39,654 nucleotides of DNA from a virus. The translations under genes and the position numbers were made by a program. The notes under the pieces were generated by a model, which did no database searches, was not told the DNA's origin, and saw nothing but the letters and a program-made list of their open reading frames with translations. The stretch lies in IMG/VR virus record IMGVR_UViG_3300046506_000191; one strand, written 5' to 3'. Below, in pieces: positions 1,777-37,042 of the stretch (the first letter of the stretch is position 1; each line of letters begins with the position of its first letter).

Positions 1777-4233
1777 TTGAGCACCGCACCGGTCCGCGAC
1801 ACGCCACTCGACGGCGCCCTGTGGCTCACCAGCCGCGGCTTCGCCGTCTTCCCCGTGGACCACCCCGGGCTGCAGCGGTGCGCCGGCATCGGCCAGGGCC
1901 ACGACCCCGCCACCTGTACCCAGCGCGGTAAGCACCCCGCCGTGGCGTTCACCCGCAGCCACGCCCGCACCGAGCAGCAGGCAGTCGCCCTGTTCGGCGG
2001 GCAGCTCCGCAACGTGGGCGTCGCCGTCGGCGCCTGCCGCGGCCCGGGCGGCGAGCAGCTGCTCGTCGTCGACTCCGATCGGCCCGGCGCCATCGAAGAC
2101 ACCGCCGCCCGCCTCGGCCACGCGCACACCCCGACCATGCGCGTCCACACCGCCAAGGGCCACCACGACTACTACTGGGCACCGGCGGACGCCCCCCTCG
2201 GCAACGGCCTCGGCATCCTCCGCGGACAGTTCGACGGCGACGTCCGCGCCGGAAATGCCTACGTCATCGGCCCCGGCTCCGTCCACGCCACCGGCGTCAT
2301 CTACGAGCTGGACGACCCCGAGCAGGCGCCCGTCCCGGCGCCCGCCTGGCTGCTCACCGCGCTGCAGACCAAGCCCGCAACCGCACCCGTCGCGCCGCCC
2401 AGCAACGTGATCGCGCTGCCCGCCGACCGGTATGACGCCTACACCCGCAAAGCCGTACAGGCCGAATGCGACGCCATCGCGCACGCAACGGACGGTGACC
2501 AGAACAACCAGATCAACACCAGCGCGTTCAGCATCGGCACCCTCGTCGGCGCTGGCGCGCTCACCGAAGGCGAAGCCCGGCAGACGCTGCTCGCCGCCGC
2601 CCGTGCAGGCAACCACCCTGACGGGCGGGCCCTGCCCACCATCAACTCCGGGCTCACCGCAGGCATGGCCCACCCCCGCACCCCGTGGCCCCCGGTCTCC
2701 CGCGACCGCTTCACCCTGCTCCTCCCCCAGCAGCCCACCGCCCCGGCCGCGCCTGCGGCGAGCACTCCCGCGTGGACCGCGCCCGTCGAGACGCCGATCG
2801 TCCTGCCCTCCCCGATGCCCGCCCGCGAATGGGACGACCTCGGCAACGCCGAACGCATCATCGACCGCTACGGCAGCGAGATCCGGTGGCTCGCCGACAT
2901 CGAACGCTGGGCGTACTACGACAAGGGCCGCTGGACCCTGAAGGCAGCCAACACCGGCGTGTGGACCCGCGCCGTCGACACCATCAACCAGCTCGAGGAC
3001 GAGGCCCCCAACTACAGCGACGAGACGCCACAGCCCGACCCCGGCAGCAAAGCGCAGGCGCCGGCCGCCAGCGAGCAGGAGAAGTTCCGCGCCTGGGGCC
3101 GCAAGCAGCGCATGCGGCCCAAGCTCGCCGCCGCCCGCGACGTCCTCCAGGCCTACCCCGTCGTCCACTCCGCCATGGACGCCTTCGATCAGCCGGAGAC
3201 GCTCCTCAACGTCACCAACGGCATCGTCGACCTCGCCACCGGTGACCTCCGCGCCCACGACCGCGGCCTCTACCTCATGCAGCAGTCACCCATCTGCTAC
3301 GACCCGACCGCCACCTGCCCCACGTGGGACAAGTTCCTCGCAGGCGTCATGCCCGACCCTGAGCGCCGCGCCTACCTCGCCCGCGTCGTCGGCTACAGCC
3401 TCACCGCCTGCACCGGCGAGCAGGTCATGTTCATCCACCACGGCGAAGGACAGAACGGCAAAGGCGTGTTCATGCGCGTCGTCATGGGCCTGCTCGGCGA
3501 TTACGCCCAGGCCGTGCCCGCCTCCACCCTCATGGCCAAGCACGGCGACGGCGGCATCCCCAACGACGTTGCCCGCATGGTCGGCAAGCGCCTCCTGTCT
3601 ACCTCCGAGACTGGACGCACCGCCGAAGGCCGAGGCAAGCCGCTCGACGAGGAACTCGTCAAGCGGCTCACCGGTGAAGACCCGGTGTCCGCCCGGTTCC
3701 TGAACGCCGAGTTCTTCGAGTTCAAGCCCGTCGGAAAGATCCACCTCGCGACGAACCACCTGCCCGACGTGTCCGGCAGTCACAGCATGGCCCGCCGCCT
3801 CCAAGACATTGGCTGGGACGTCATCGTGCCCCCTGCCAAGCGGATCCAGGGCCTGGCCGAACAGATCCTCGCCCGCGAAGCGGCAGGCGTCCTCAACTGG
3901 GCCATCCGCGGCTGCCTCGACTGGCAGCAGCGCGGCCTCGCCGTGCCCGACTCCGTCACCGCGAAGACCCGCGAGCACATCGCCCAGTCCAATCCCCTCG
4001 CGACGTGGCTGGAAGAGGAGACCGACGAGGTCGCTGACGCCGTCACCGAGAACGGCCAGCTGTACGGCAGGTACAAGGCGTGGGCCGAACGCGCGGGCGT
4101 TCGGCACCCCATGTCGATGAAGGCGTTCACGATCCGCCTGCAGGAGCAGGGGTTCCAGCAGGACAAGGACTCCCGCACCCGCCGGGCTGTCACTCGCGGC
4201 CTCGCGCTCGCCCTCCTTGGCGGCGCCCAGTGA
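1777..4233 (+). CDS. Bifunctional primase-polymerase (Prim-Pol) fused to a D5/P4-type SF3 helicase NTPase
   Basis: The N-terminal part (GFAVFPV, LLVVDSD, HTAKGHHDYYW, VIGPGSVH) matches the AEP prim-pol pattern. The C-terminal part carries Walker A HHGEGQNGKGV and a P4-family primase C-terminal region. TTG 1777 lies 9 nt after GAGGAG; the start is uncertain. Confidence 0.85.
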   Translation: MSTAPVRDTPLDGALWLTSRGFAVFPVDHPGLQRCAGIGQGHDPATCTQRGKHPAVAFTRSHARTEQQAVALFGGQLRNVGVAVGACRGPGGEQLLVVDSDRPGAIEDTAARLGHAHTPTMRVHTAKGHHDYYWAPADAPLGNGLGILRGQFDGDVRAGNAYVIGPGSVHATGVIYELDDPEQAPVPAPAWLLTALQTKPATAPVAPPSNVIALPADRYDAYTRKAVQAECDAIAHATDGDQNNQINTSAFSIGTLVGAGALTEGEARQTLLAAARAGNHPDGRALPTINSGLTAGMAHPRTPWPPVSRDRFTLLLPQQPTAPAAPAASTPAWTAPVETPIVLPSPMPAREWDDLGNAERIIDRYGSEIRWLADIERWAYYDKGRWTLKAANTGVWTRAVDTINQLEDEAPNYSDETPQPDPGSKAQAPAASEQEKFRAWGRKQRMRPKLAAARDVLQAYPVVHSAMDAFDQPETLLNVTNGIVDLATGDLRAHDRGLYLMQQSPICYDPTATCPTWDKFLAGVMPDPERRAYLARVVGYSLTACTGEQVMFIHHGEGQNGKGVFMRVVMGLLGDYAQAVPASTLMAKHGDGGIPNDVARMVGKRLLSTSETGRTAEGRGKPLDEELVKRLTGEDPVSARFLNAEFFEFKPVGKIHLATNHLPDVSGSHSMARRLQDIGWDVIVPPAKRIQGLAEQILAREAAGVLNWAIRGCLDWQQRGLAVPDSVTAKTREHIAQSNPLATWLEEETDEVADAVTENGQLYGRYKAWAERAGVRHPMSMKAFTIRLQEQGFQQDKDSRTRRAVTRGLALALLGGAQ

Positions 4234-4816: not shown

Positions 4817-5304
4817 GCCGATCCAAAGCCAAGGGCACCGCCGCCGAAACCGCGGTCGTCCAGTACCTCCAGGCCGCCGGGTTCGCCCAGACCGAGCGCC
4901 GCGCCCTCAACGGCAACCTGGACCGCGGCGACATCGCCGGCATCCCCGGCGTCGTCATCGAGGTGAAGAACTGCGCCCGGCAGGAACTCCCCGCCTGGGT
5001 CGCCGAAGCCGAGCTCGAGCGAGACAACGACAACGCGACGCTCGGCGTCGTCTGGCACAAGCGCCGCGGCAAGGGCAGCCCTCGCGACTGGTTCGTCACC
5101 ATGAGCGGCGCCCAGTTCGTTGCCCTGCTCCGCGAACAGCAGGGCCTCGACGCCCTGGCCCAGGACCCGGAGCGGAACCGCTGCCTGTCCGTATACGGCG
5201 GGATCTTCCGCTGCGCCAAGCCGACTGGCCACATGGGGGAACACCGGCTCGGCCGCACGGTGTGGGGCCGTCGCGCAGAGGACGACGGCGGTGAGGCAGC
5301 GTGA
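4813..5304 (+). CDS. PD-(D/E)XK endonuclease, Holliday-junction resolvase-like (archaeal Hjc-like)
   Basis: GTGA-coupled start after CAGGAG. KGTAAETAVVQYL ... RGDIAG ... VIEVK gives the E...D...ExK nuclease motif set. Confidence 0.7.
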   Translation: MSRSKAKGTAAETAVVQYLQAAGFAQTERRALNGNLDRGDIAGIPGVVIEVKNCARQELPAWVAEAELERDNDNATLGVVWHKRRGKGSPRDWFVTMSGAQFVALLREQQGLDALAQDPERNRCLSVYGGIFRCAKPTGHMGEHRLGRTVWGRRAEDDGGEAA

Positions 5305-5708
5305 CCCAGCAGCCGTACCGCGTCCTCGTCACCGGCAGCCGCGACTGGCAGGCCATCGGCGTCGTTCGCCGCGCCCTCGACGAAGTCCTCGCCGTCCTCC
5401 CGCACGATCAGCCCCTAGTCGTCGCTCACGGGGACTGCCCGACCGGCGCCGACATCATGGCCAAGGTGTGGGCGCTGACCACCTTCACCCCGGCCTGCAC
5501 GGACGACTTCGAGCGCGTCACCGAAGAACCGCATCCCGCTGCCTGGCACGTCCACGGCAACGCTGCTGGCCCGATCCGCAACAAGGCCATGGTCGACAAG
5601 GGCGCCGACATCTGCCTCGCGTTCATCCGCAACGGCAGCCGCGGGGCCAGCCACACCGCAGCCCTCGTCGAGCAGGCCGGGATCCCCACAAGGCGGTGGA
5701 CCGCGTGA
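5301..5708 (+). CDS. SLOG-superfamily / DUF2493-like protein
   Basis: YRVLVTGSRDW ... VVAHGDCPTGADI ... GPIRNKAMV ... SRGASHT pattern recalled from the DUF2493/YspA-type Rossmann-like family. GTGA-coupled start. Confidence 0.6.
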   Translation: MTQQPYRVLVTGSRDWQAIGVVRRALDEVLAVLPHDQPLVVAHGDCPTGADIMAKVWALTTFTPACTDDFERVTEEPHPAAWHVHGNAAGPIRNKAMVDKGADICLAFIRNGSRGASHTAALVEQAGIPTRRWTA

Positions 5709-10486: not shown

Positions 10487-10696
10487 GTGAACCGAGAAGA
10501 GCGCCTGACCATGGCCAATACGGCGATGGACAAGGCCACCCAGCTCGCCCGCGACGCCGAATTCCACGCCCGCAGCCACGAATCCCGCCAGAGGACGCAG
10601 CCCCTCGCCGCCGCCGGCGCCCTGTGGGTGGACATCGCCCGCGCCCACGCCGACATCGCCCGCCTGCTGCCCGAGACGGAGGACACCGATGTCTGA
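10487..10696 (+). CDS. Hypothetical small protein (69 aa)
   Basis: GTG after GAGGAGAG. ATG 10511 is an alternative start. Confidence 0.5.
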   Translation: MNREERLTMANTAMDKATQLARDAEFHARSHESRQRTQPLAAAGALWVDIARAHADIARLLPETEDTDV

Positions 10697-10859
10697 GCCG
10701 AAGGTGAAGCTCACGCTCTGGGAGAAGGCCCGCATCGTCGCCATCGAGGCACACGGCGTGAAGCGTGCCGCCGCCGGTATCGAGAACCAGCCCGACATCG
10801 ACAAGCGCGTCGAGCGCGTCCGTGAGCAGGCCCGCAAGAGGGCCGCGCGCGGCAAGTAG
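10689..10859 (+). CDS. Hypothetical basic small protein (56 aa)
   Basis: ATG 4 nt after ACGGAGGA. Overlaps the upstream stop. Hand-translated as MSEPKVKLTLWEKARIVAIEAHGVKR... Confidence 0.45.
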   Translation: MSEPKVKLTLWEKARIVAIEAHGVKRAAAGIENQPDIDKRVERVREQARKRAARGK

Positions 10860-13048: not shown

Positions 13049-13191
13049 AGGGGGGAGGGCACTACAACCCCCGCTACGAGACCCCCTCTTGGCCACCCCT
13101 ACCCGGCGAGTGGATCTAGAGGGGGGCCTCTACGGCCATAGACCCCCCAGTAGAGGCCCCCGACCTGCAAAGTAGTGGGGATAGAGGGGGG
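13045..13191. repeat. Cluster of (G)TAGAGG(G/C)4 repeats downstream of the translocase gene (clt-like or operator-like)
   Basis: Copies start at 13046, 13117, 13151 and 13182. An inverted copy CCTCTAC lies at 13128-13134. Degenerate copies are GTAGTGGGG (13172) and CCCCCTCTT (13082). Confidence 0.6.
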
Positions 13192-13237
13192 TACGGGGCC
13201 ACCCTCCAACAGCCCCTCCAGAGGGCATCATGGAGGC

Positions 13238-13417
13238 ATGCAGCAAACCGTCCTCGTCGACGCCTACGCCGCCCACGCAGCCACCGGCATACAGCCCGGC
13301 ACCATCCGCGTCTGGCTTCACCGCGGCAAGCTCACCCACCACGGCCACGACCGCCAAGGGCGCGCCCTCGTCGACCTCAACGAACTCGCCGAGAAGGCAA
13401 ACGGTCAAGCAGCTTGA
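13238..13417 (+). CDS. Small helix-turn-helix DNA-binding protein (MerR/excisionase-like, 59 aa)
   Basis: ATG after GGAGGC. ATGIQPGTIRVWLHRGKL ... GRALVDLNEL. Confidence 0.6.
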   Translation: MQQTVLVDAYAAHAATGIQPGTIRVWLHRGKLTHHGHDRQGRALVDLNELAEKANGQAA

Positions 13418-13487
13418 CCAACGCCCTGACCTGCTGTAACACTCAAGCCACGTTCACTGTGTCCTCAACCGACACCACAGACGCACG

Positions 13488-13521
13488 CGAAGCCCCGGCG
13501 GCCATGAGCCCCGGGGCTTCG
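13488..13521 (+). terminator. Stem-loop terminator after the HTH gene
   Basis: CGAAGCCCCGG pairs with CCGGGGCTTCG: 11 perfect bp around a 12-nt loop. Confidence 0.55.
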
Positions 13522-13530
13522 TCGTGCACG

Positions 13531-13649
13531 GGCGGACCGTGGCAGAGCGGCCAAATGCACCGGCGAGCGGAAGAGCCTCCGCAACGTCGGCGAGAGTCGG
13601 GGCGGCCCTGCCCTTGCCCTCCGTGGGTTCAAATCCCACCGGTCCGCCT
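13531..13649 (+). ncRNA. tRNA-like element (118 nt) with acceptor closure, class-II-type D-arm and canonical T-arm but no canonical anticodon arm
   Basis: GGCGGACCG (13531-13539) pairs with CGGTCCGCC (13640-13648). The D-loop is GAGCGGCCAAA. The T-arm is GTGGG-TTCAAAT-CCCAC (13623-13639). A manual scan found no 5-bp stem with a 7-nt loop between them. Confidence 0.4.
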
Positions 13650-13670
13650 ACTCACGACGGGAGGGCGCCC

Positions 13671-13955
13671 GTGGCCGGTATCCGCAACGGGCGCCCCTAC
13701 CGCCGCCTGGTGGCTGCCGTGAAGGCCCTCGGCCTCCCGTGCTGGATCTGCGGCCACAACATCCCCGCCAACGTCGACGGCCGGCGCCACCCGCTCGCCT
13801 TCACCCTCGACCACCTCATCCCGCTCAGCCGCGGCGGCGACCTCTGCGACCCCGCCAACGCCCGCTCAGCACACCGCCGCTGCAACAGCGCGCGGGGCAA
13901 CCGCACGACGACCCGGCCGAAGACGGCGCCGCAGCGAGCCTCACGGAGGTGGTGA
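13671..13955 (+). CDS. HNH endonuclease
   Basis: GTG 5 nt after GGGAGGG. CWICGH ... TLDHLIPLSRGG ... NARSAHRRCNSARGN is the HNH Cys/His motif set. Confidence 0.8.
   Translation: MAGIRNGRPYRRLVAAVKALGLPCWICGHNIPANVDGRRHPLAFTLDHLIPLSRGGDLCDPANARSAHRRCNSARGNRTTTRPKTAPQRASRRW
13931..13955 (+). repeat. 25-bp exact repeat (GCAGCGAGCCTCACGGAGGTGGTGA), copy 1, supplying the SD for the next gene
   Basis: Identical to 14343-14367. Confidence 0.95.
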
Positions 13956-13959
13956 GACG

Positions 13960-14343
13960 ATGCCGAGCATGAGTGATGAGCTGGTGCGGTGGCTCGCCGA
14001 GCAGTTCGACGAGGACGAGCGGATCGCGCGCAGAGCGGGTGACAGCTTCCGGCAGATCGGCGAGACCGGCGTCATCGTCGCCACCGAGGGCGACCGAGCG
14101 GAAGAGTGCGCCTCCGCAAACTGGGCTGGCGTTGCCGAGCACATCGTTGCGCATGATCCGGCTCGGGTGCTGCGCGAGATCGACGCGAAGCGGCGCATCC
14201 TCGCCGAACACGCACTCAACGGCTGGGTCTGCACCACCTGCGATAACGGGCAGGTCGAACAGGTCTTCCCCTGCCCGACGCTGTGCCTGCTCGCCCTGCC
14301 CTACGCGGACCGTCCCGGCTACCGCGAGGAATGTCACCCGTAG
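13960..14343 (+). CDS. Hypothetical protein, DUF6221-like (127 aa)
   Basis: ATG 7 nt after GGAGGTGG. The HIVAHDPARVLREIDAKRRILAEH segment is recalled from a Streptomyces/mycobacterial DUF family. Confidence 0.65.
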   Translation: MPSMSDELVRWLAEQFDEDERIARRAGDSFRQIGETGVIVATEGDRAEECASANWAGVAEHIVAHDPARVLREIDAKRRILAEHALNGWVCTTCDNGQVEQVFPCPTLCLLALPYADRPGYREECHP

Positions 14344-14572: not shown

Positions 14573-15010
14573 GTGCTGATCGTCGTCACCGGCCCGCCGG
14601 CCGCAGGCAAGTCGAGCTGGATTAAGGCGCACGCCAAGGCCAACGACATCGTCATCGACCTCGACCTGATGGCGCTGGCCATGGCCGGGCCCGGAGCTGA
14701 CCACCACGCCCACGGTGAGGTGCTGACCAAGGTGGTGCACCGCGCCCGCTACGCAGCCATCGACGAGGCGTGCCAGCACCTCGACAAGGTCGACGTGTAC
14801 GTCATCCACACACAGCCCAGCGCGAAGGCGCGAGCGAAGTACAAGAGGCTCGACGCGCGCATCGTGACCGTGGACCCAGGCAGGGACATCGTCATGCAGA
14901 GGGTCAAGGCCATGCGACAGCCCGAGATGGAACGGGTCGTCACCCGGTGGTACAACGCCCGGCGCGGCCAGGCCCGGGGCGCGATGCCGCAGGCGTCACG
15001 AGTGTGGTGA
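14573..15010 (+). CDS. P-loop NTPase/kinase-like protein (145 aa)
   Basis: Walker A at the N-terminus: LIVVTGPPAAGKSSW. Small single-domain size, like AAA_33/zeta-type kinases. Confidence 0.7.
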   Translation: MLIVVTGPPAAGKSSWIKAHAKANDIVIDLDLMALAMAGPGADHHAHGEVLTKVVHRARYAAIDEACQHLDKVDVYVIHTQPSAKARAKYKRLDARIVTVDPGRDIVMQRVKAMRQPEMERVVTRWYNARRGQARGAMPQASRVW

Positions 15011-35470: not shown

Positions 35471-37042
35471 TTACTGGACGAGTGCGGGTTCGTCCTCCCA
35501 CACGGGGATCACGCGTGCCGCAGCCTGATAGCGGGATGGGCGGGGCAGCACCCACACGTACCGCATCAGCTGCCGCAGCAGCAGGTTCTTCGTCACGACG
35601 GTGAGGAGGTTCGGCTCCTCCCACTGGGCAAGCAGGTCAGCCGCCAGCGGCTGGAAGTCGGCCGCGGTCCGCACCGGCTTCTCCTCTTCGCACTGCGCCA
35701 GCTCGGCCAGCACCTGCTTGCGGTCGGCTTCCAACCGCCTCACAGCCTGGTCGTAGGCGTCGGCCGGATACCGGTCGGGATTGAGGGCGTAGTCCATGGT
35801 GAGCCTGCCCAGCGCATCGGAGAGACGCGCGGACTCGGTGGAGAGACGCGCCCGCTGCACCCCCGGGTCGGGGCCGGCCGACCGCGGCGCGGAAATGGTG
35901 GCGGGGGCCGCGTCCACACCGGCCGCCACCTCCCGAATGAAGGGCAGCACAACCTCGGCTAGCAGCCAGCCGCCGGGGGCCGCGGTGCCTGGGCATGGCA
36001 CGCCGCCCGCCCGGCGCGAGCACCGCCAGTCCGCATCCCGGCCGCCACCGCGCCGTTTCGCACTCATCGAGTGATTGCAGTAACAGCAGCGCACCAGGCC
36101 GGTGAGCTCATAGGTGGCATGGCGCGCTCGAGGTGGCTGGCTGCGGACCAGGGAACGCCGCTCCCGGTACGCCTCCCACAGCTGTGTGGGATCGGCGTCG
36201 ATGCCGTACCCGATGATCGGCAGATGCGCACCGTCGGTATACCGCCAGTGCCCGCAGCTCTTAAAGCCGCGACCTTCGGCCTTGGGGCAATCGCAGTCGT
36301 CGCGGACGCGCAGCATCCCGGCCGGGAACCCGGAGTCCATGTAGCGCAGGAGGCTGTCGTAGCCCCACGGGCCGCCGCGCGTGGTCTGGTGGCCGACGGC
36401 GTTGAGCTGCTGGGCGAGGGCGACCATGCCGGTGCCGCCGAGGTACTGGGCGTAGAGGGATGCGACGAGGGGCGCCAGCTCGGGGTGCGGCTCGTACAAC
36501 TCCTGCTGGGTGCTGTATCCCGTAGGCGAGGCCGGGTCGGGGATGCGGCGTGGGTGCCAGATGTAGCCGAAACGGGGGCGGCCGGCGGATGGCACGCCCT
36601 GAGCGATGCGGTGCTTGTGGGTTTCCTGCCACTGCTCGCCGATGCGCCGCGACTCGAACTCCGCGATGCCGAACTGCACATGGCGACTCAGGCGGCCGAC
36701 GGCGGTGGTTGCGTCGATCCGCTCCGTCGCCGACTCCAGCGTGCCGCCCGCTTGTTCGAGGCGACGCAGGTTGATCTGGATGCCGTAGTCGTCGCGGCCG
36801 AACCGGCTGTACTTCCAGACGGCGATCCCTCTGGCCTCGCGGCGCTCGACGCGCTGGATCGCACCCATGATCTTCCGCTTGAAATGCCGTCCGGACACAT
36901 CCAGGTCCTCCACCCAGTCGATGACTTGACGGCCTGTCTGCTGCGCCCATGTGGTGATCGCAGCACGCTGGATCTCCGGGCTGATCTTCTCCTCGCGCCA
37001 GGTACTGACGCGGACGTATCCGATGAACGGCTCTGTGCTCAT
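35471..37042 (-). CDS. int: Large serine recombinase (phage integrase)
   Basis: The N-terminus IGYVRVSTWREE carries the catalytic Ser motif. Also present: the resolvase domain ...VWKYSRFGRD, a recombinase domain, and zinc-ribbon Cys pairs (CDCP...C, CCYC...C). Confidence 0.9.
   Translation of the reverse strand: MSTEPFIGYVRVSTWREEKISPEIQRAAITTWAQQTGRQVIDWVEDLDVSGRHFKRKIMGAIQRVERREARGIAVWKYSRFGRDDYGIQINLRRLEQAGGTLESATERIDATTAVGRLSRHVQFGIAEFESRRIGEQWQETHKHRIAQGVPSAGRPRFGYIWHPRRIPDPASPTGYSTQQELYEPHPELAPLVASLYAQYLGGTGMVALAQQLNAVGHQTTRGGPWGYDSLLRYMDSGFPAGMLRVRDDCDCPKAEGRGFKSCGHWRYTDGAHLPIIGYGIDADPTQLWEAYRERRSLVRSQPPRARHATYELTGLVRCCYCNHSMSAKRRGGGRDADWRCSRRAGGVPCPGTAAPGGWLLAEVVLPFIREVAAGVDAAPATISAPRSAGPDPGVQRARLSTESARLSDALGRLTMDYALNPDRYPADAYDQAVRRLEADRKQVLAELAQCEEEKPVRTAADFQPLAADLLAQWEEPNLLTVVTKNLLLRQLMRYVWVLPRPSRYQAAARVIPVWEDEPALVQ

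What the first reader, a model, noticed from the sequence alone, without database searches (positions are those of the whole stretch)
13531..13649. 118-nt tRNA-like element with perfect acceptor, D-arm and T-arm but an expanded, non-canonical middle
GGCGGACCG (13531-13539) pairs perfectly with CGGTCCGCC (13640-13648). The D-region GCA-GAGCGGCCAAA-TGC copies the class-II (Tyr/Ser-type) D-loop. GTGGG-TTCAAAT-CCCAC (13623-13639) is a textbook T-arm.

The roughly 63 nt in between (13560-13622) contain no 5-bp stem with a 7-nt loop; I checked every register by hand. Instead there is a 6-bp helix (13560-13565 with 13585-13590) capped by a second hairpin (GCGGA/TCCGC with a 6-nt loop). A G/C-rich arm follows.

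The acceptor helix can be 9 bp rather than 7. Possible explanations are a degenerate phage tRNA, an allo-tRNA-like molecule, a tRNA mimic (for example a decoy for anticodon nucleases or tRNA-modifying enzymes), or a processing signal. The element sits 10 nt after a terminator and just upstream of the HNH gene.
Basis: seen in the sequence. Interest (0 to 1): 0.65.

Follow-up and report, generated by a model that had tools for sequence, protein, structure and literature searches.

The report
Anticodon-less tRNA-shaped phage RNA with kissing loops
This is a real, conserved RNA gene in a Streptomyces-type prophage that keeps the tRNA corner and stems but replaces the anticodon with two long arms whose loops pair with each other, an apparently undescribed kind of tRNA mimic of unknown function.

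Summary
Window 13530-13649 folds as a class-II tRNA cloverleaf with canonical D and T arms, no anticodon loop and a 10-bp terminal helix. ARAGORN and Rfam 15 recognise nothing.

It is not a decayed tRNA. I found four relatives:
- L211, a related prophage, with the element in the same slot before a different HNH/terminase module.
- L217 and L218, two other viral contigs.
- L084, a Streptomyces chromosome.

All five share the design: an invariant D/T "elbow", a terminal helix of 9-11 bp (interrupted in four of the five), and two arms of about 8-12 bp ending in hexaloops (a heptaloop in L084).

Stems covary: 34 of 50 pairs show compensatory changes, and 96.5% of cells pair against 33-46% when partners are slid.

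The two loops are complementary to each other in every member, with unrelated sequences:
- CUGCGA/UCGCAG
- GUACCU/AGGUAC
- AGGA(A)CC/GGUCCU
- AGAGCC/GGCCCU (5 of 6)
- AGGUCC/GGCCCU (5 of 6)

This indicates a kissing-loop contact.

It fails the defining tests for tRNA, allo-tRNA, tRNA-Sec, tmRNA and YrlA.

In the window it occupies a variable cargo slot between a conserved late-leader hairpin and HNH/terminase.

Best reading: a non-decoding, structurally locked tRNA mimic made at the onset of late transcription. The structure is well supported. The function (decoy, processing module or self-assembling scaffold) is inferred only.

The parts
13530..13539 (+). 5' strand of the terminal (acceptor-like) helix P1, GGGCGGACCG
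   Evidence: It pairs with 13640-13649 to give 10 bp, including G13530-U13649. The helix covaries in L211, L084, L218 and L217: 9 of 12 pairs show changes on both sides.
13540..13541 (+). U8-G9 linker (TG), as in class-II tRNAs
   Evidence: Invariant in all five members. A phage tRNA-Ser in L002 has the same linker.
13542..13558 (+). D arm: GCA / GAGCGGCCAAA / TGC (A14, G15, G18G19 and A21 present)
   Evidence: Identical to the D arm of a phage tRNA-Ser(UGA) in L002. The D stem is invariant in the family.
13560..13590 (+). Anticodon-position arm P3. P3a is 13560-65/13585-90 (6 bp with a G-U). The internal loop is A/AA. P3b is 13567-71/13578-82 (5 bp). The hexaloop AGAGCC is 13572-77.
   Evidence: MFE fold. 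P3a has 4 of 6 and P3b 5 of 6 pairs with compensatory change. RNAalifold recovers both helices.
13572..13577 (+). Loop 1 (AGAGCC), proposed partner of loop 2
   Evidence: It is 5 of 6 complementary to GGCCCU at 13604-09. The equivalent loops are 6 of 6 complementary in L217 and L218, and form 6 bp plus a bulge in L084.
13592..13621 (+). Variable-arm-position arm P4. P4a is 13592-97/13616-21 (with a conserved A-C mismatch). The internal loop is C/U. P4b is 13599-603/13610-14. The hexaloop GGCCCU is 13604-09.
   Evidence: MFE fold. P4a has 6 of 6 and P4b 4 of 6 pairs with compensatory change.
13604..13609 (+). Loop 2 (GGCCCU), proposed partner of loop 1
   Evidence: See loop 1. In the kissing helix all 6 pairs covary and 93% of cells pair.
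13622..13639 (+). C48-equivalent plus T arm: GTGGG / TTCAAAT / CCCAC
   Evidence: Canonical T54-Psi55-C56-A58 loop. The stem is invariant in all five members.
13640..13649 (+). 3' strand of terminal helix P1, CGGTCCGCCT; no encoded CCA
13489..13520 (+). Conserved GC hairpin (GAAGCCCCGG / CCGGGGCUUC) of the late leader. It is the left border of the cargo slot.
   Evidence: Sequence. It is conserved in L003, L007, L021, L040, L041, L054, L067 and L211. The consensus terminator scan does not call it, because there is no U run.
13528..13663 (+). Variable cargo slot: homology with related prophages stops at 13527 and resumes at 13664
   Evidence: blastn of the region against 80 related loci. The slot is empty in L067. 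It holds about 440 bp with a small membrane-protein ORF in L007.
13671..13955 (+). HNH endonuclease gene (GTG start, SD GGGAGGG at 13659-65), first gene of the packaging/late module
   Evidence: Pfam PF01844; PHROG 338. TerL, portal, major head protein and tape measure protein lie downstream.

Best explanation
Window 13530-13649 encodes a non-decoding tRNA mimic that belongs to a small, apparently undescribed family carried mainly by high-G+C phages and prophages.

What it is:
- The RNA keeps the complete class-II (Ser/Tyr/Leu-type) tRNA core: U8, A14, G15-C48, G18G19, the T-loop, a 3-bp D stem and a 5-bp T stem.
- It should therefore form the tRNA elbow.
- Its ends are closed in a 9-11-bp helix instead of a 7-bp acceptor with a free CCA.
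- The anticodon arm and variable arm are replaced by two interrupted helices of about 8-12 bp. Their hexaloops base-pair with each other (a kissing loop).

How it likely works (inferred):
- The loop-loop contact locks the lower body into a rigid form that cannot decode.
- The invariant elbow and the D and T stems are the working surface. They would be bound by some tRNA-recognising factor, such as RNase P, a tRNA-modifying or CCA-adding enzyme, or a tRNA-directed toxin or defence enzyme.
- In this prophage it sits in a cargo slot directly after the late-leader hairpin. It would therefore be made in bulk when late transcription reads through.
- There it would act as a decoy or sequestering RNA.

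What is shown:
- The fold.
- The family.
- The covariation, including the loop-loop complementarity.
- The slot.
- The lack of coding potential.

What is inferred:
- Expression timing.
- Whether the kiss is within one molecule.
- The binding partner and the decoy role.
For: Fold and recognition:
- The MFE fold is a cloverleaf with z = -3.34.
- ARAGORN and Rfam find no tRNA, tmRNA or other family in the window or in the relatives.

Family members:
- L084, Streptomyces sp. NRRL WC-3742.
- L211, a related prophage, with the same leader followed by the element and then a different HNH, TerS and TerL.
- L217 and L218, viral contigs.

Covariation on the structural alignment A5:
- 96.5% of cells pair, against 33-46% when 3' partners are slid.
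- 34 of 50 pairs have changes on both sides.
- 0 of 500 shuffles reach any measure.
- The loop-loop helix has 6 of 6 pairs covarying.
- RNAalifold independently recovers P1, P3a, P3b, P4a, P4b and the T arm.

Loop complementarity:
- The loop matrix gives 5-6 of 6 within each molecule and 0-3 between lineages.
- Under strict hairpin criteria, 6 of 6 complementary loops occur only in L217 and L218 among 290 D-arm/T-arm candidates, and in 0 of 1450 shuffles.

Not coding:
- GC by codon position is flat (0.69/0.76/0.71), against 0.68/0.63/0.94 for HNH.
- There is a 2-nt indel between the window and L211, and an in-frame stop in L211.

Slot:
- Homology with 80 relatives breaks at 13527 and resumes at 13664. 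The slot is empty in L067 and holds an ORF in L007.
- Only 9 nt separate the hairpin from the element. The promoter scan found no promoter-like site in 13100-14000.
Against: - There are only five members, and the alignment was fitted by hand to the structure, which inflates pair counts.
- The D-loop and T-loop motifs were required by my search patterns, so their invariance is partly ascertainment.
- In the window and in L211 the loop pairing has one central mismatch (5 of 6; duplex energies only -3.9 and -5.0 kcal/mol).
- There are no expression data, no mapped RNA ends and no partner protein.
- Nothing co-occurs with the element in all contexts. The kinase and the 71-aa gene next to L084 are not linked to it.
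- A decoy with no anticodon loop and no free CCA could not mimic the usual target sites of anticodon nucleases or acceptor-end toxins.
- The chromosomal copy (L084) lies in an 808-bp insertion with no phage genes within the 8 kb available.
Confidence: 0.45

Rival explanations
1. It is a cis-acting processing or stability module, a form of tRNA punctuation. The tRNA-shaped fold embedded in the late transcript would be cut by RNase P, RNase Z or RNase E. Alternatively it would simply stay as a stable 5' structure. Either way it would set the 5' end and half-life of the HNH/terminase mRNA.
For: - It lies 9 nt after the leader hairpin and 21 nt before the HNH start codon, with no promoter or terminator of its own.
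- L211 has the same arrangement before a different HNH/TerS/TerL module.
- In L218 it lies between a portal/MuF-like gene and a 560-aa gene in a phage head-gene region (only a weak Phage_Mu_F match).
- M. smegmatis YrlA shows that RNase P can cut a closed tRNA-like helix (PMC4201824).
Against: - Most related prophages express the same genes without it, and the slot is empty in L067.
- L084 is not upstream of any co-oriented gene.
- L217 sits beside another tRNA-like gene rather than before an ORF.
- A processing signal would not need two elaborate arms with co-evolving loops.
- The irregularity in the terminal helix lies 3-5 bp from the junction, not at the 7-bp mark that RNase P measures.
Confidence: 0.2
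2. It is a self-assembling scaffold RNA. This would build dimers or closed rings of tRNA-shaped units, possibly working with the adjacent packaging machinery.
For: - The loops co-vary while their sequences are free, exactly the signature seen among phi29-family pRNAs (my own knowledge).
- A fully paired 6-nt by 6-nt kiss needs a head-to-head, near-coaxial arrangement. That is hard to close within one molecule from two arms leaving one junction (geometric inference).
- The element neighbours HNH/terminase genes in the window and in L211.
- Phage-associated ROOL and GOLLD RNAs multimerise through kissing loops (PMC12990946).
Against: - Both arms have mid-arm internal loops and similar lengths. 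That fits an intramolecular kiss made possible by bends, as in the lysine riboswitch L2-L3 (my own knowledge).
- HK97-type terminase/HNH packaging needs no RNA.
- Most relatives lack the element.
- There is no Rfam pRNA match.
Confidence: 0.12
3. It is a chargeable tRNA-like carrier. After trimming and CCA addition it would be aminoacylated, with serine-type identity from the long extra arm. It would then be used off the ribosome, for example as an aminoacyl donor or as bait for aminoacyl-tRNA-dependent enzymes.
For: - The class-II core and D arm are identical to those of a phage tRNA-Ser.
- The inner seven pairs of P1 resemble a tRNA-Ser acceptor (L002 9537-9624).
- Precedents are B. cereus tRNA-Other and allo-tRNAs charged with Ser (PMC5389517).
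Against: - No member encodes CCA.
- The helix continues 2-4 bp beyond position 1-72, and is interrupted at pair 4-69 in three members and one pair further out in L217.
- The variable-arm orientation that SerRS reads would be altered by the kiss.
Confidence: 0.07
4. It is a decaying tRNA gene or integration-site remnant with no function of its own.
For: - Related prophages do carry broken tRNAs, such as L020 with a 6-nt anticodon loop and an acceptor mismatch.
- The element is rare: it is absent from all 80 loci retrieved through the terminase.
Against: - Five copies in unrelated contexts keep the same non-tRNA arms through 34 compensatory pairs and co-varying loops.
- Both tRNA halves are present, so it is not an att-site fragment.
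- The window's integrase is a serine recombinase about 22 kb away.
Confidence: 0.04
5. It is an N-terminal coding extension of HNH (ORF 13524-13955).
For: The frame is open from GTG 13524 into HNH.
Against: - The codon-position GC is flat.
- There is a 2-nt indel relative to L211, and an in-frame stop in L211.
- HNH starts at the conserved SD and start codon in relatives that have an empty slot.
Confidence: 0.01

Closest known systems
Class-II tRNAs (tRNA-Ser/Tyr/Leu), including phage-encoded tRNA-Ser
   Same: - Same order of helices.
- U8-G9 linker and 3-bp D stem.
- D loop GAGCGGCCAAA, identical to that of a phage tRNA-Ser(UGA) in L002.
- G15-C48.
- Canonical T arm.
- A long extra arm.

   Different: - There is no 7-nt anticodon loop and no U33.
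- The anticodon-position arm is 8-12 bp with a hexaloop.
- The terminal helix is 9-11 bp, and no CCA is encoded.
- ARAGORN and Rfam do not call it.
YrlA / bacterial Y RNAs (tRNA-mimicking Ro60 partners)
   Same: - A non-decoding RNA with tRNA-like D and T arms and a closed acceptor-type helix.
- Found in bacteria and phages, including actinobacteria.
- Conserved D/T stems are thought to be a binding surface (PMC4201824).
   Different: - YrlA is circularly permuted: the T arm comes before the D arm, the acceptor is capped by a loop, and the ends lie in the anticodon-side stem.
- YrlA carries the GNCGAA Ro60 site and lies next to Ro60.
- Here the order is that of a tRNA, no such motif is present, and no Ro60 gene is seen among the proteins tested.
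Allo-tRNAs and tRNA-Sec (long acceptor stems, long variable arm)
   Same: - An acceptor helix longer than 7 bp.
- A long extra arm.
- A serine-type core.
- Found in soil bacteria and phages (PMC5389517).
   Different: - Allo-tRNAs keep a 12-bp branch (8/4 or 9/3), tRNA-Sec has 13 bp, and both keep a functional anticodon.
- Here the branch is about 15 bp with a full 5-bp T stem, and there is no anticodon.
- The tRNA-Sec model scores 15.7 bits against a gathering score of 47.
tmRNA tRNA-like domain
   Same: - An acceptor/T-arm mimic in a non-tRNA.
- The T arm gives the only weak Rfam hit in a family member.
   Different: - tmRNA lacks a D stem.
- It has a tag ORF and pseudoknots and is about 350 nt.
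- It is charged with alanine.
- ARAGORN finds no tmRNA.
phi29 pRNA; ROOL/GOLLD phage-associated RNAs
   Same: - Phage-borne RNA of about 120 nt.
- Its two loops co-vary to stay complementary (pRNA).
- ROOL and GOLLD sit near tRNA genes in prophages and assemble through kissing loops (PMC12990946).
   Different: - There is no sequence or Rfam relationship.
- pRNA has a three-way junction rather than a tRNA core, and belongs to protein-primed podoviruses.
- ROOL and GOLLD are 500-800 nt.
Lysine riboswitch L2-L3 and purine riboswitch L2-L3 intramolecular kissing loops (my own knowledge)
   Same: Two neighbouring arms of one junction are tied together by loop-loop Watson-Crick pairs. Bends at internal loops make the contact possible.
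   Different: Those are ligand-sensing 5'-UTR elements with no tRNA core.

Membership tests
Canonical tRNA (Rfam RF00005 / ARAGORN) | 5-bp anticodon stem with a 7-nt loop (U33, 3-nt anticodon) | tested here: not met
   No such hairpin exists between 13559 and 13623. The arm is 6+5 bp with the hexaloop AGAGCC. ARAGORN finds 0 genes. There is no RF00005 hit even at E = 10.
Canonical tRNA (Rfam RF00005 / ARAGORN) | 7-bp acceptor stem with a single-stranded discriminator and CCA end | tested here: not met
   The helix runs 10 bp in the window and 9-11 bp in the relatives. No member encodes CCA.
Canonical tRNA (Rfam RF00005 / ARAGORN) | D arm and T arm carrying the elbow nucleotides (U8, A14, G18G19, T54-Psi55-C56, G53-C61) | tested here: met
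   All of these are present and invariant in the five members.
Allo-tRNA (8/4 or 9/3) | 12-bp acceptor/T branch made of a longer acceptor and a shortened T stem | tested here: not met
   The T stem is a full 5 bp and the terminal helix is 10 bp, giving 15 bp. Definition taken from PMC5389517.
tRNA-Sec (RF01852) | 13-bp branch, 6-bp D stem, UCA anticodon; score at or above gathering | tested here: not met
   The score is 15.7 bits against a gathering score of 47, with E = 2, over a shifted sub-region 13562-13648. The D stem is 3 bp.
tmRNA (RF00023 and relatives) | tRNA-like domain plus a tag reading frame and pseudoknots | tested here: not met
   ARAGORN finds no tmRNA. Rfam matches only an 18-nt T arm in L217. 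The element is 120 nt.
YrlA / bacterial Y RNA | Permuted order (T arm 5' of D arm, acceptor-like stem capped by a loop, ends in the anticodon-side stem) | tested here: not met
   The order here is P1, D, arm, arm, T, P1. Definition taken from PMC4201824.
YrlA / bacterial Y RNA | Encoded next to a Ro60 (TROVE) gene; GNCGAA Ro60-binding motif | tested here: inconclusive
   There is no GNCGAA in any 5' strand. There is no TROVE hit among the roughly 15 window proteins scanned. The whole window and the relatives' full contigs were not scanned.
phi29-type pRNA | Two loops kept complementary by covariation | tested here: met
phi29-type pRNA | Rfam pRNA fold (three-way junction) in a protein-primed phi29-like phage | tested here: not met
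   There is no Rfam hit. The host element is a siphovirus-type prophage with TerL, portal, HK97-like head protein and tape measure protein.
Proposed family: kissing-loop tRNA-like RNA (this report) | Class-II tRNA core, a 9-11-bp closed terminal helix, two interrupted arms of 8-12 bp, and mutually complementary hexaloops | tested here: met
   The window element and L211, L084, L217 and L218 all meet these features. The window's loops pair 5 of 6.

The most novel reading that the evidence does not exclude
The element would be the founding example of a new class of phage tRNA mimic.

The decoy version would disarm a tRNA-directed host immunity enzyme. One candidate is an AbiEii/MenT-type nucleotidyltransferase, a family reported to prefer tRNA-Ser (my own knowledge, not tested).

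Either way the RNA would be made at the onset of late gene expression.
Probability: 0.2. Interest if true: 0.9.

Novelty: new variant of a known kind. Interest (0 to 1): 0.7.

Why it matters
tRNA mimicry is a recurring strategy (tmRNA, Y RNAs, viral tRNA-like structures, mascRNA). Phage tRNAs are now understood partly as counter-measures to tRNA-targeting immunity.

A phage RNA that keeps the tRNA elbow but deliberately removes decoding and the free acceptor end, and ties its lower body with a co-evolving loop-loop contact, would be a new structural answer. It would also give a handle on whatever host factor reads the elbow.

The scans also showed that high-G+C viral contigs hold several other anticodon-less class-II tRNA-likes that tRNA finders miss. 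This suggests an overlooked layer of phage non-coding RNA.

Tried and rejected
**Searches that found nothing**
- blastn of the element and its flanks against 50,697 GenBank phages found only T-arm or D-arm fragments of ordinary tRNAs. The L217 and L218 elements also found nothing.
- 80 prophage loci fetched through the terminase held no copy, by blastn or by a T-loop/acceptor scan.
- The exact-motif viral scans found no relative. Relaxed motif scans did.
- Two further viral scans added no member.
- L338 gave a 6-nt complement, but one partner is not a credible hairpin loop, so I excluded it.

**Possible linkages that failed**
- Link to the AAA_33 kinase: the window kinase and the L084 kinase are unrelated, and L211 has none.
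- Link to the 71-aa gene next to L084: seven homologue contexts lack the RNA.

**Other points**
- A further outer helix in the window (GTCGTG 13521-26 with CACGAC 13653-58) is not conserved in L211, so I treat it as chance.
- I did not build a covariance model. Only sequence already fetched can be searched with one, and MAFFT misaligned the arms.
- att-site remnant and coding extension: rejected (see rivals).
Full report
**1. The observation**

- GGCGGACCG (13531-39) pairs with CGGTCCGCC (13640-48). G13530 and U13649 add a tenth pair.
- Next come the linker UG, a 3-bp D stem with the loop GAGCGGCCAAA (13542-58), a 31-nt arm (13560-90), a 30-nt arm (13592-621) and a canonical T arm (13623-39).

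The minimum-free-energy fold is exactly this five-helix cloverleaf: -64.4 kcal/mol, z = -3.34, with 1 of 200 shuffles folding as well. ARAGORN reports no tRNA or tmRNA anywhere in the window. Rfam 15 gives nothing at gathering score. At E up to 10 it gives only a 15.7-bit tRNA-Sec match on a shifted sub-region.

**2. Setting**

The window is about 70% G+C and is a siphovirus-type prophage. Its genes include:
- a primase-polymerase/D5 helicase, an FtsK-like protein and a MerR/HTH-like 80-aa protein;
- HNH (13671-13955), DUF6221 and an AAA_33-type protein;
- TerL, portal, major head protein and tape measure protein;
- a serine integrase at 35474-37042.

I fetched 80 related loci through TerL. 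None contains the element. Their homology to the window stops at 13527 and resumes at 13664.
- The left border is a conserved GC hairpin (13489-13520). It is preceded by a promoter-like TTGACC-N17-TAACAC box (13414-42; my reading of the sequence).
- The right border is the Shine-Dalgarno sequence of HNH.

The slot between the borders varies:
- It is empty in L067, where the hairpin is followed 16 nt later by the HNH start.
- It holds about 440 bp with a small membrane-protein ORF in L007, L003 and L040.

The element is therefore cargo in a variable slot at the head of the late/packaging operon. This recalls the tRNA genes that lie just downstream of pR'-tR' in Stx phages (my own knowledge). 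Only 9 nt separate the hairpin from the element. The promoter scan found no promoter-like site in 13100-14000. Transcription therefore probably depends on read-through from the leader (inference).

**3. Relatives**

Motif scans that required a class-II D loop, an over-long middle and a T loop found four relatives.
- **L084**, Streptomyces sp. NRRL WC-3742, minus strand 5141-5271.
- **L211**, an IMG/VR contig, minus strand 10619-10740. The same leader and hairpin are followed by the element and then by a different HNH, a Terminase_4 TerS and a TerL.
- **L217** and **L218**, IMG/VR contigs with 57% and 65% G+C.
  - In L218 the element lies between a portal/MuF-like gene and a 560-aa gene in a phage head-gene region (only a weak Phage_Mu_F match).
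  - In L217 it lies 240 nt after another unrecognised tRNA-like sequence.

In L084 the element sits in an 808-bp insertion that is absent from the syntenic locus L412.

None of the four is called by ARAGORN. None matches an Rfam family beyond an 18-nt T arm. GenBank phages hold nothing similar.

**4. Shared architecture and covariation**

I aligned the five sequences by structure, using N as a gap. MAFFT left the 150 columns unshifted. All five share these features:
- U8-G9, GCA/UGC, G18G19, C48 and GUGGG/UUCRAAU/CCCAC.
- A terminal helix of 9-11 bp. After the first 3-5 pairs it has a weak or irregular position, then 4-8 more pairs. The irregular position is an A-U pair in the window, G-A in L211, C/CUC in L084, a bulged C in L218 and a bulged G in L217.
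- Two interrupted arms of 8-12 bp ending in hexaloops (a heptaloop in L084).

The pair counts for this structure are as follows:
- 96.5% of cells form standard pairs, against 33-46% when the 3' partners are slid by 1-3 columns.
- 34 of 50 pairs have changes on both sides.
- 0 of 500 shuffles reach any of the five measures.

RNAalifold, run without my structure, recovers P1, P3a, P3b, P4a, P4b and the T arm. The D and T stems never vary, so they say nothing for or against.

Caveats:
- There are only five sequences.
- The alignment was fitted by hand.
- The D-loop and T-loop motifs were demanded by the search patterns.

**5. The loop-loop pairing**

The loop of the first arm is complementary to the loop of the second arm in every member.

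| Member | Loop 1 / loop 2 | Pairing |
|---|---|---|
| L218 | CUGCGA / UCGCAG | 6 of 6 |
| L217 | GUACCU / AGGUAC | 6 of 6 |
| L084 | AGGAACC / GGUCCU | 6 bp with one bulged A |
| window | AGAGCC / GGCCCU | 5 of 6 |
| L211 | AGGUCC / GGCCCU | 5 of 6 |

- Cross-pairing loops between lineages gives only 0-3 of 6.
- I screened 290 unique D-arm/T-arm candidates from all scans, requiring 6-7-nt loops closed by at least 4 bp. Perfect 6 of 6 complementarity occurred only in L217 and L218. It occurred in none of 1450 shuffles (a looser test is).
- The chance of a fixed pair of hexamers being fully complementary is about 3e-4.

Because the loop sequences are free and only their complementarity is kept, the loops are unlikely to read an external target. 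They pair with each other.

Whether they pair within one molecule or between molecules cannot be decided here.
- The equal arm lengths and the mid-arm internal loops fit an intramolecular kiss made possible by bends, as in the lysine riboswitch (my own knowledge).
- A fully paired hexaloop kiss needs a head-to-head geometry, which would be easier between molecules, as in phi29 pRNA.

**6. What it is not**

- **Not coding.** GC by codon position is flat. There is a 2-nt indel relative to L211 and an in-frame stop in L211. The conserved HNH start lies downstream.
- **Not a decayed tRNA or att remnant.** See the covariation above. Both tRNA halves are present, and the integrase is a distant serine recombinase.
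- **Not an allo-tRNA or tRNA-Sec.** The branch is about 15 bp with a full T stem, and there is no anticodon.
- **Not tmRNA**.
- **Not YrlA.** That family is circularly permuted, and it is defined by a Ro60 site and a neighbouring Ro60 gene.

I found no description of such an RNA in six full-text searches. Absence from that library is not proof of novelty.

**7. How it probably works**

What is conserved at the sequence level is the elbow with its D and T stems. What is conserved only as structure is everything else. The simplest mechanism is a tRNA-shaped body with these properties:
- It cannot decode and has no free CCA.
- It is made rigid by the loop-loop contact.
- It presents the elbow to a tRNA-recognising factor.

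Its position predicts bulk synthesis when late transcription passes the leader hairpin. I favour a decoy or sequestering role in trans (confidence 0.45 for the whole statement; the structural half alone I would put near 0.85).

The rivals are:
- a cis-acting processing or stability module (0.2);
- a chargeable carrier (0.07);
- a pseudogene (0.04);
- a coding extension (0.01).

No protein co-occurs with the element across contexts. The AAA kinase and the 71-aa orphan gene near L084 were tested and dropped.

**8. Verdict**

The element is a member of a small and, so far as I could find, undescribed family of kissing-loop tRNA-like RNAs in high-G+C phages. That makes it a new variant of the known kind 'tRNA mimic'. 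Function remains to be shown.

Noticed in passing
L020 2233-2309: A degenerate tRNA sits inside the conserved late leader of a related prophage, upstream of the GC hairpin. ARAGORN calls it 'tRNA-???'. It has a 6-nt anticodon loop and a C2-A71 mismatch.
   Followed up: partly
window 13414-13527 (also L007 1440-1523, L067 2540-2650, L211 upstream of 10740): A conserved late leader lies directly in front of the HNH/terminase module. It consists of a promoter-like TTGACC-N17-T(A/G)ACNNT box, a small hairpin (GUGCC/GGCAC type) and a strong GC hairpin with no U tract. It looks like a read-through or antitermination control region.
   Followed up: partly
L007 1524-1966 (same in L003, L040): In these relatives the cargo slot holds about 440 bp with an 83-aa predicted membrane-protein ORF instead of the RNA. 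In L067 the slot is empty.
   Followed up: partly
L083 9050-9153 (-): A class-II tRNA with a CUA (amber-reading) anticodon and a variable arm of about 33 nt lies in a viral contig. It encodes CCA. ARAGORN misses it.
   Followed up: no
L116, L263, L270 (matches listed): A second high-G+C subfamily of anticodon-less class-II tRNA-likes. Its members share the acceptor GCGUGU/ACACGC and long, structured extra arms.
   Followed up: no
L247, L316, L343, L350, L381, L402: A recurrent viral tRNA-like with a 6-bp stem, an 8-nt 'anticodon' loop (AACUCCCG), a long extra arm and an encoded CCA. It may be a quadruplet-reading or non-decoding species.
   Followed up: no
L217 about 1935-2050 (+): A second long tRNA-like sequence lies 240 nt upstream of the kissing-loop element. 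Its acceptor is GGGCCCA/UGGGUCC and its T arm is AGCCGG-UUCGAAU-CCGGCU. ARAGORN and Rfam are silent on it.
   Followed up: no
L215 (-), match 972-1072: A class-II tRNA-like with a normal GAA anticodon loop but an 11-bp terminal helix and a variable region of about 47 nt.
   Followed up: no
L084 4931-5737: An 808-bp insertion relative to the syntenic L412 carries the RNA plus a 71-aa orphan gene (5400-5615 minus strand, GC3 0.93). Homologues of that gene in Kitasatospora and Streptomyces sit in unrelated contexts without the RNA.
   Followed up: yes
window 13524-13955: The mechanical ORF that runs through the RNA into HNH is an artefact of high G+C. The true HNH start is GTG 13671, behind the SD GGGAGGG.
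   Followed up: yes
window 14573-15007: A 145-aa P-loop protein between HNH and TerL matches Pfam AAA_33 and also PHROG 4581, which is annotated 'terminase small subunit'. It is conserved in nearly all relatives, so it may be the TerS analogue or a kinase.
   Followed up: no
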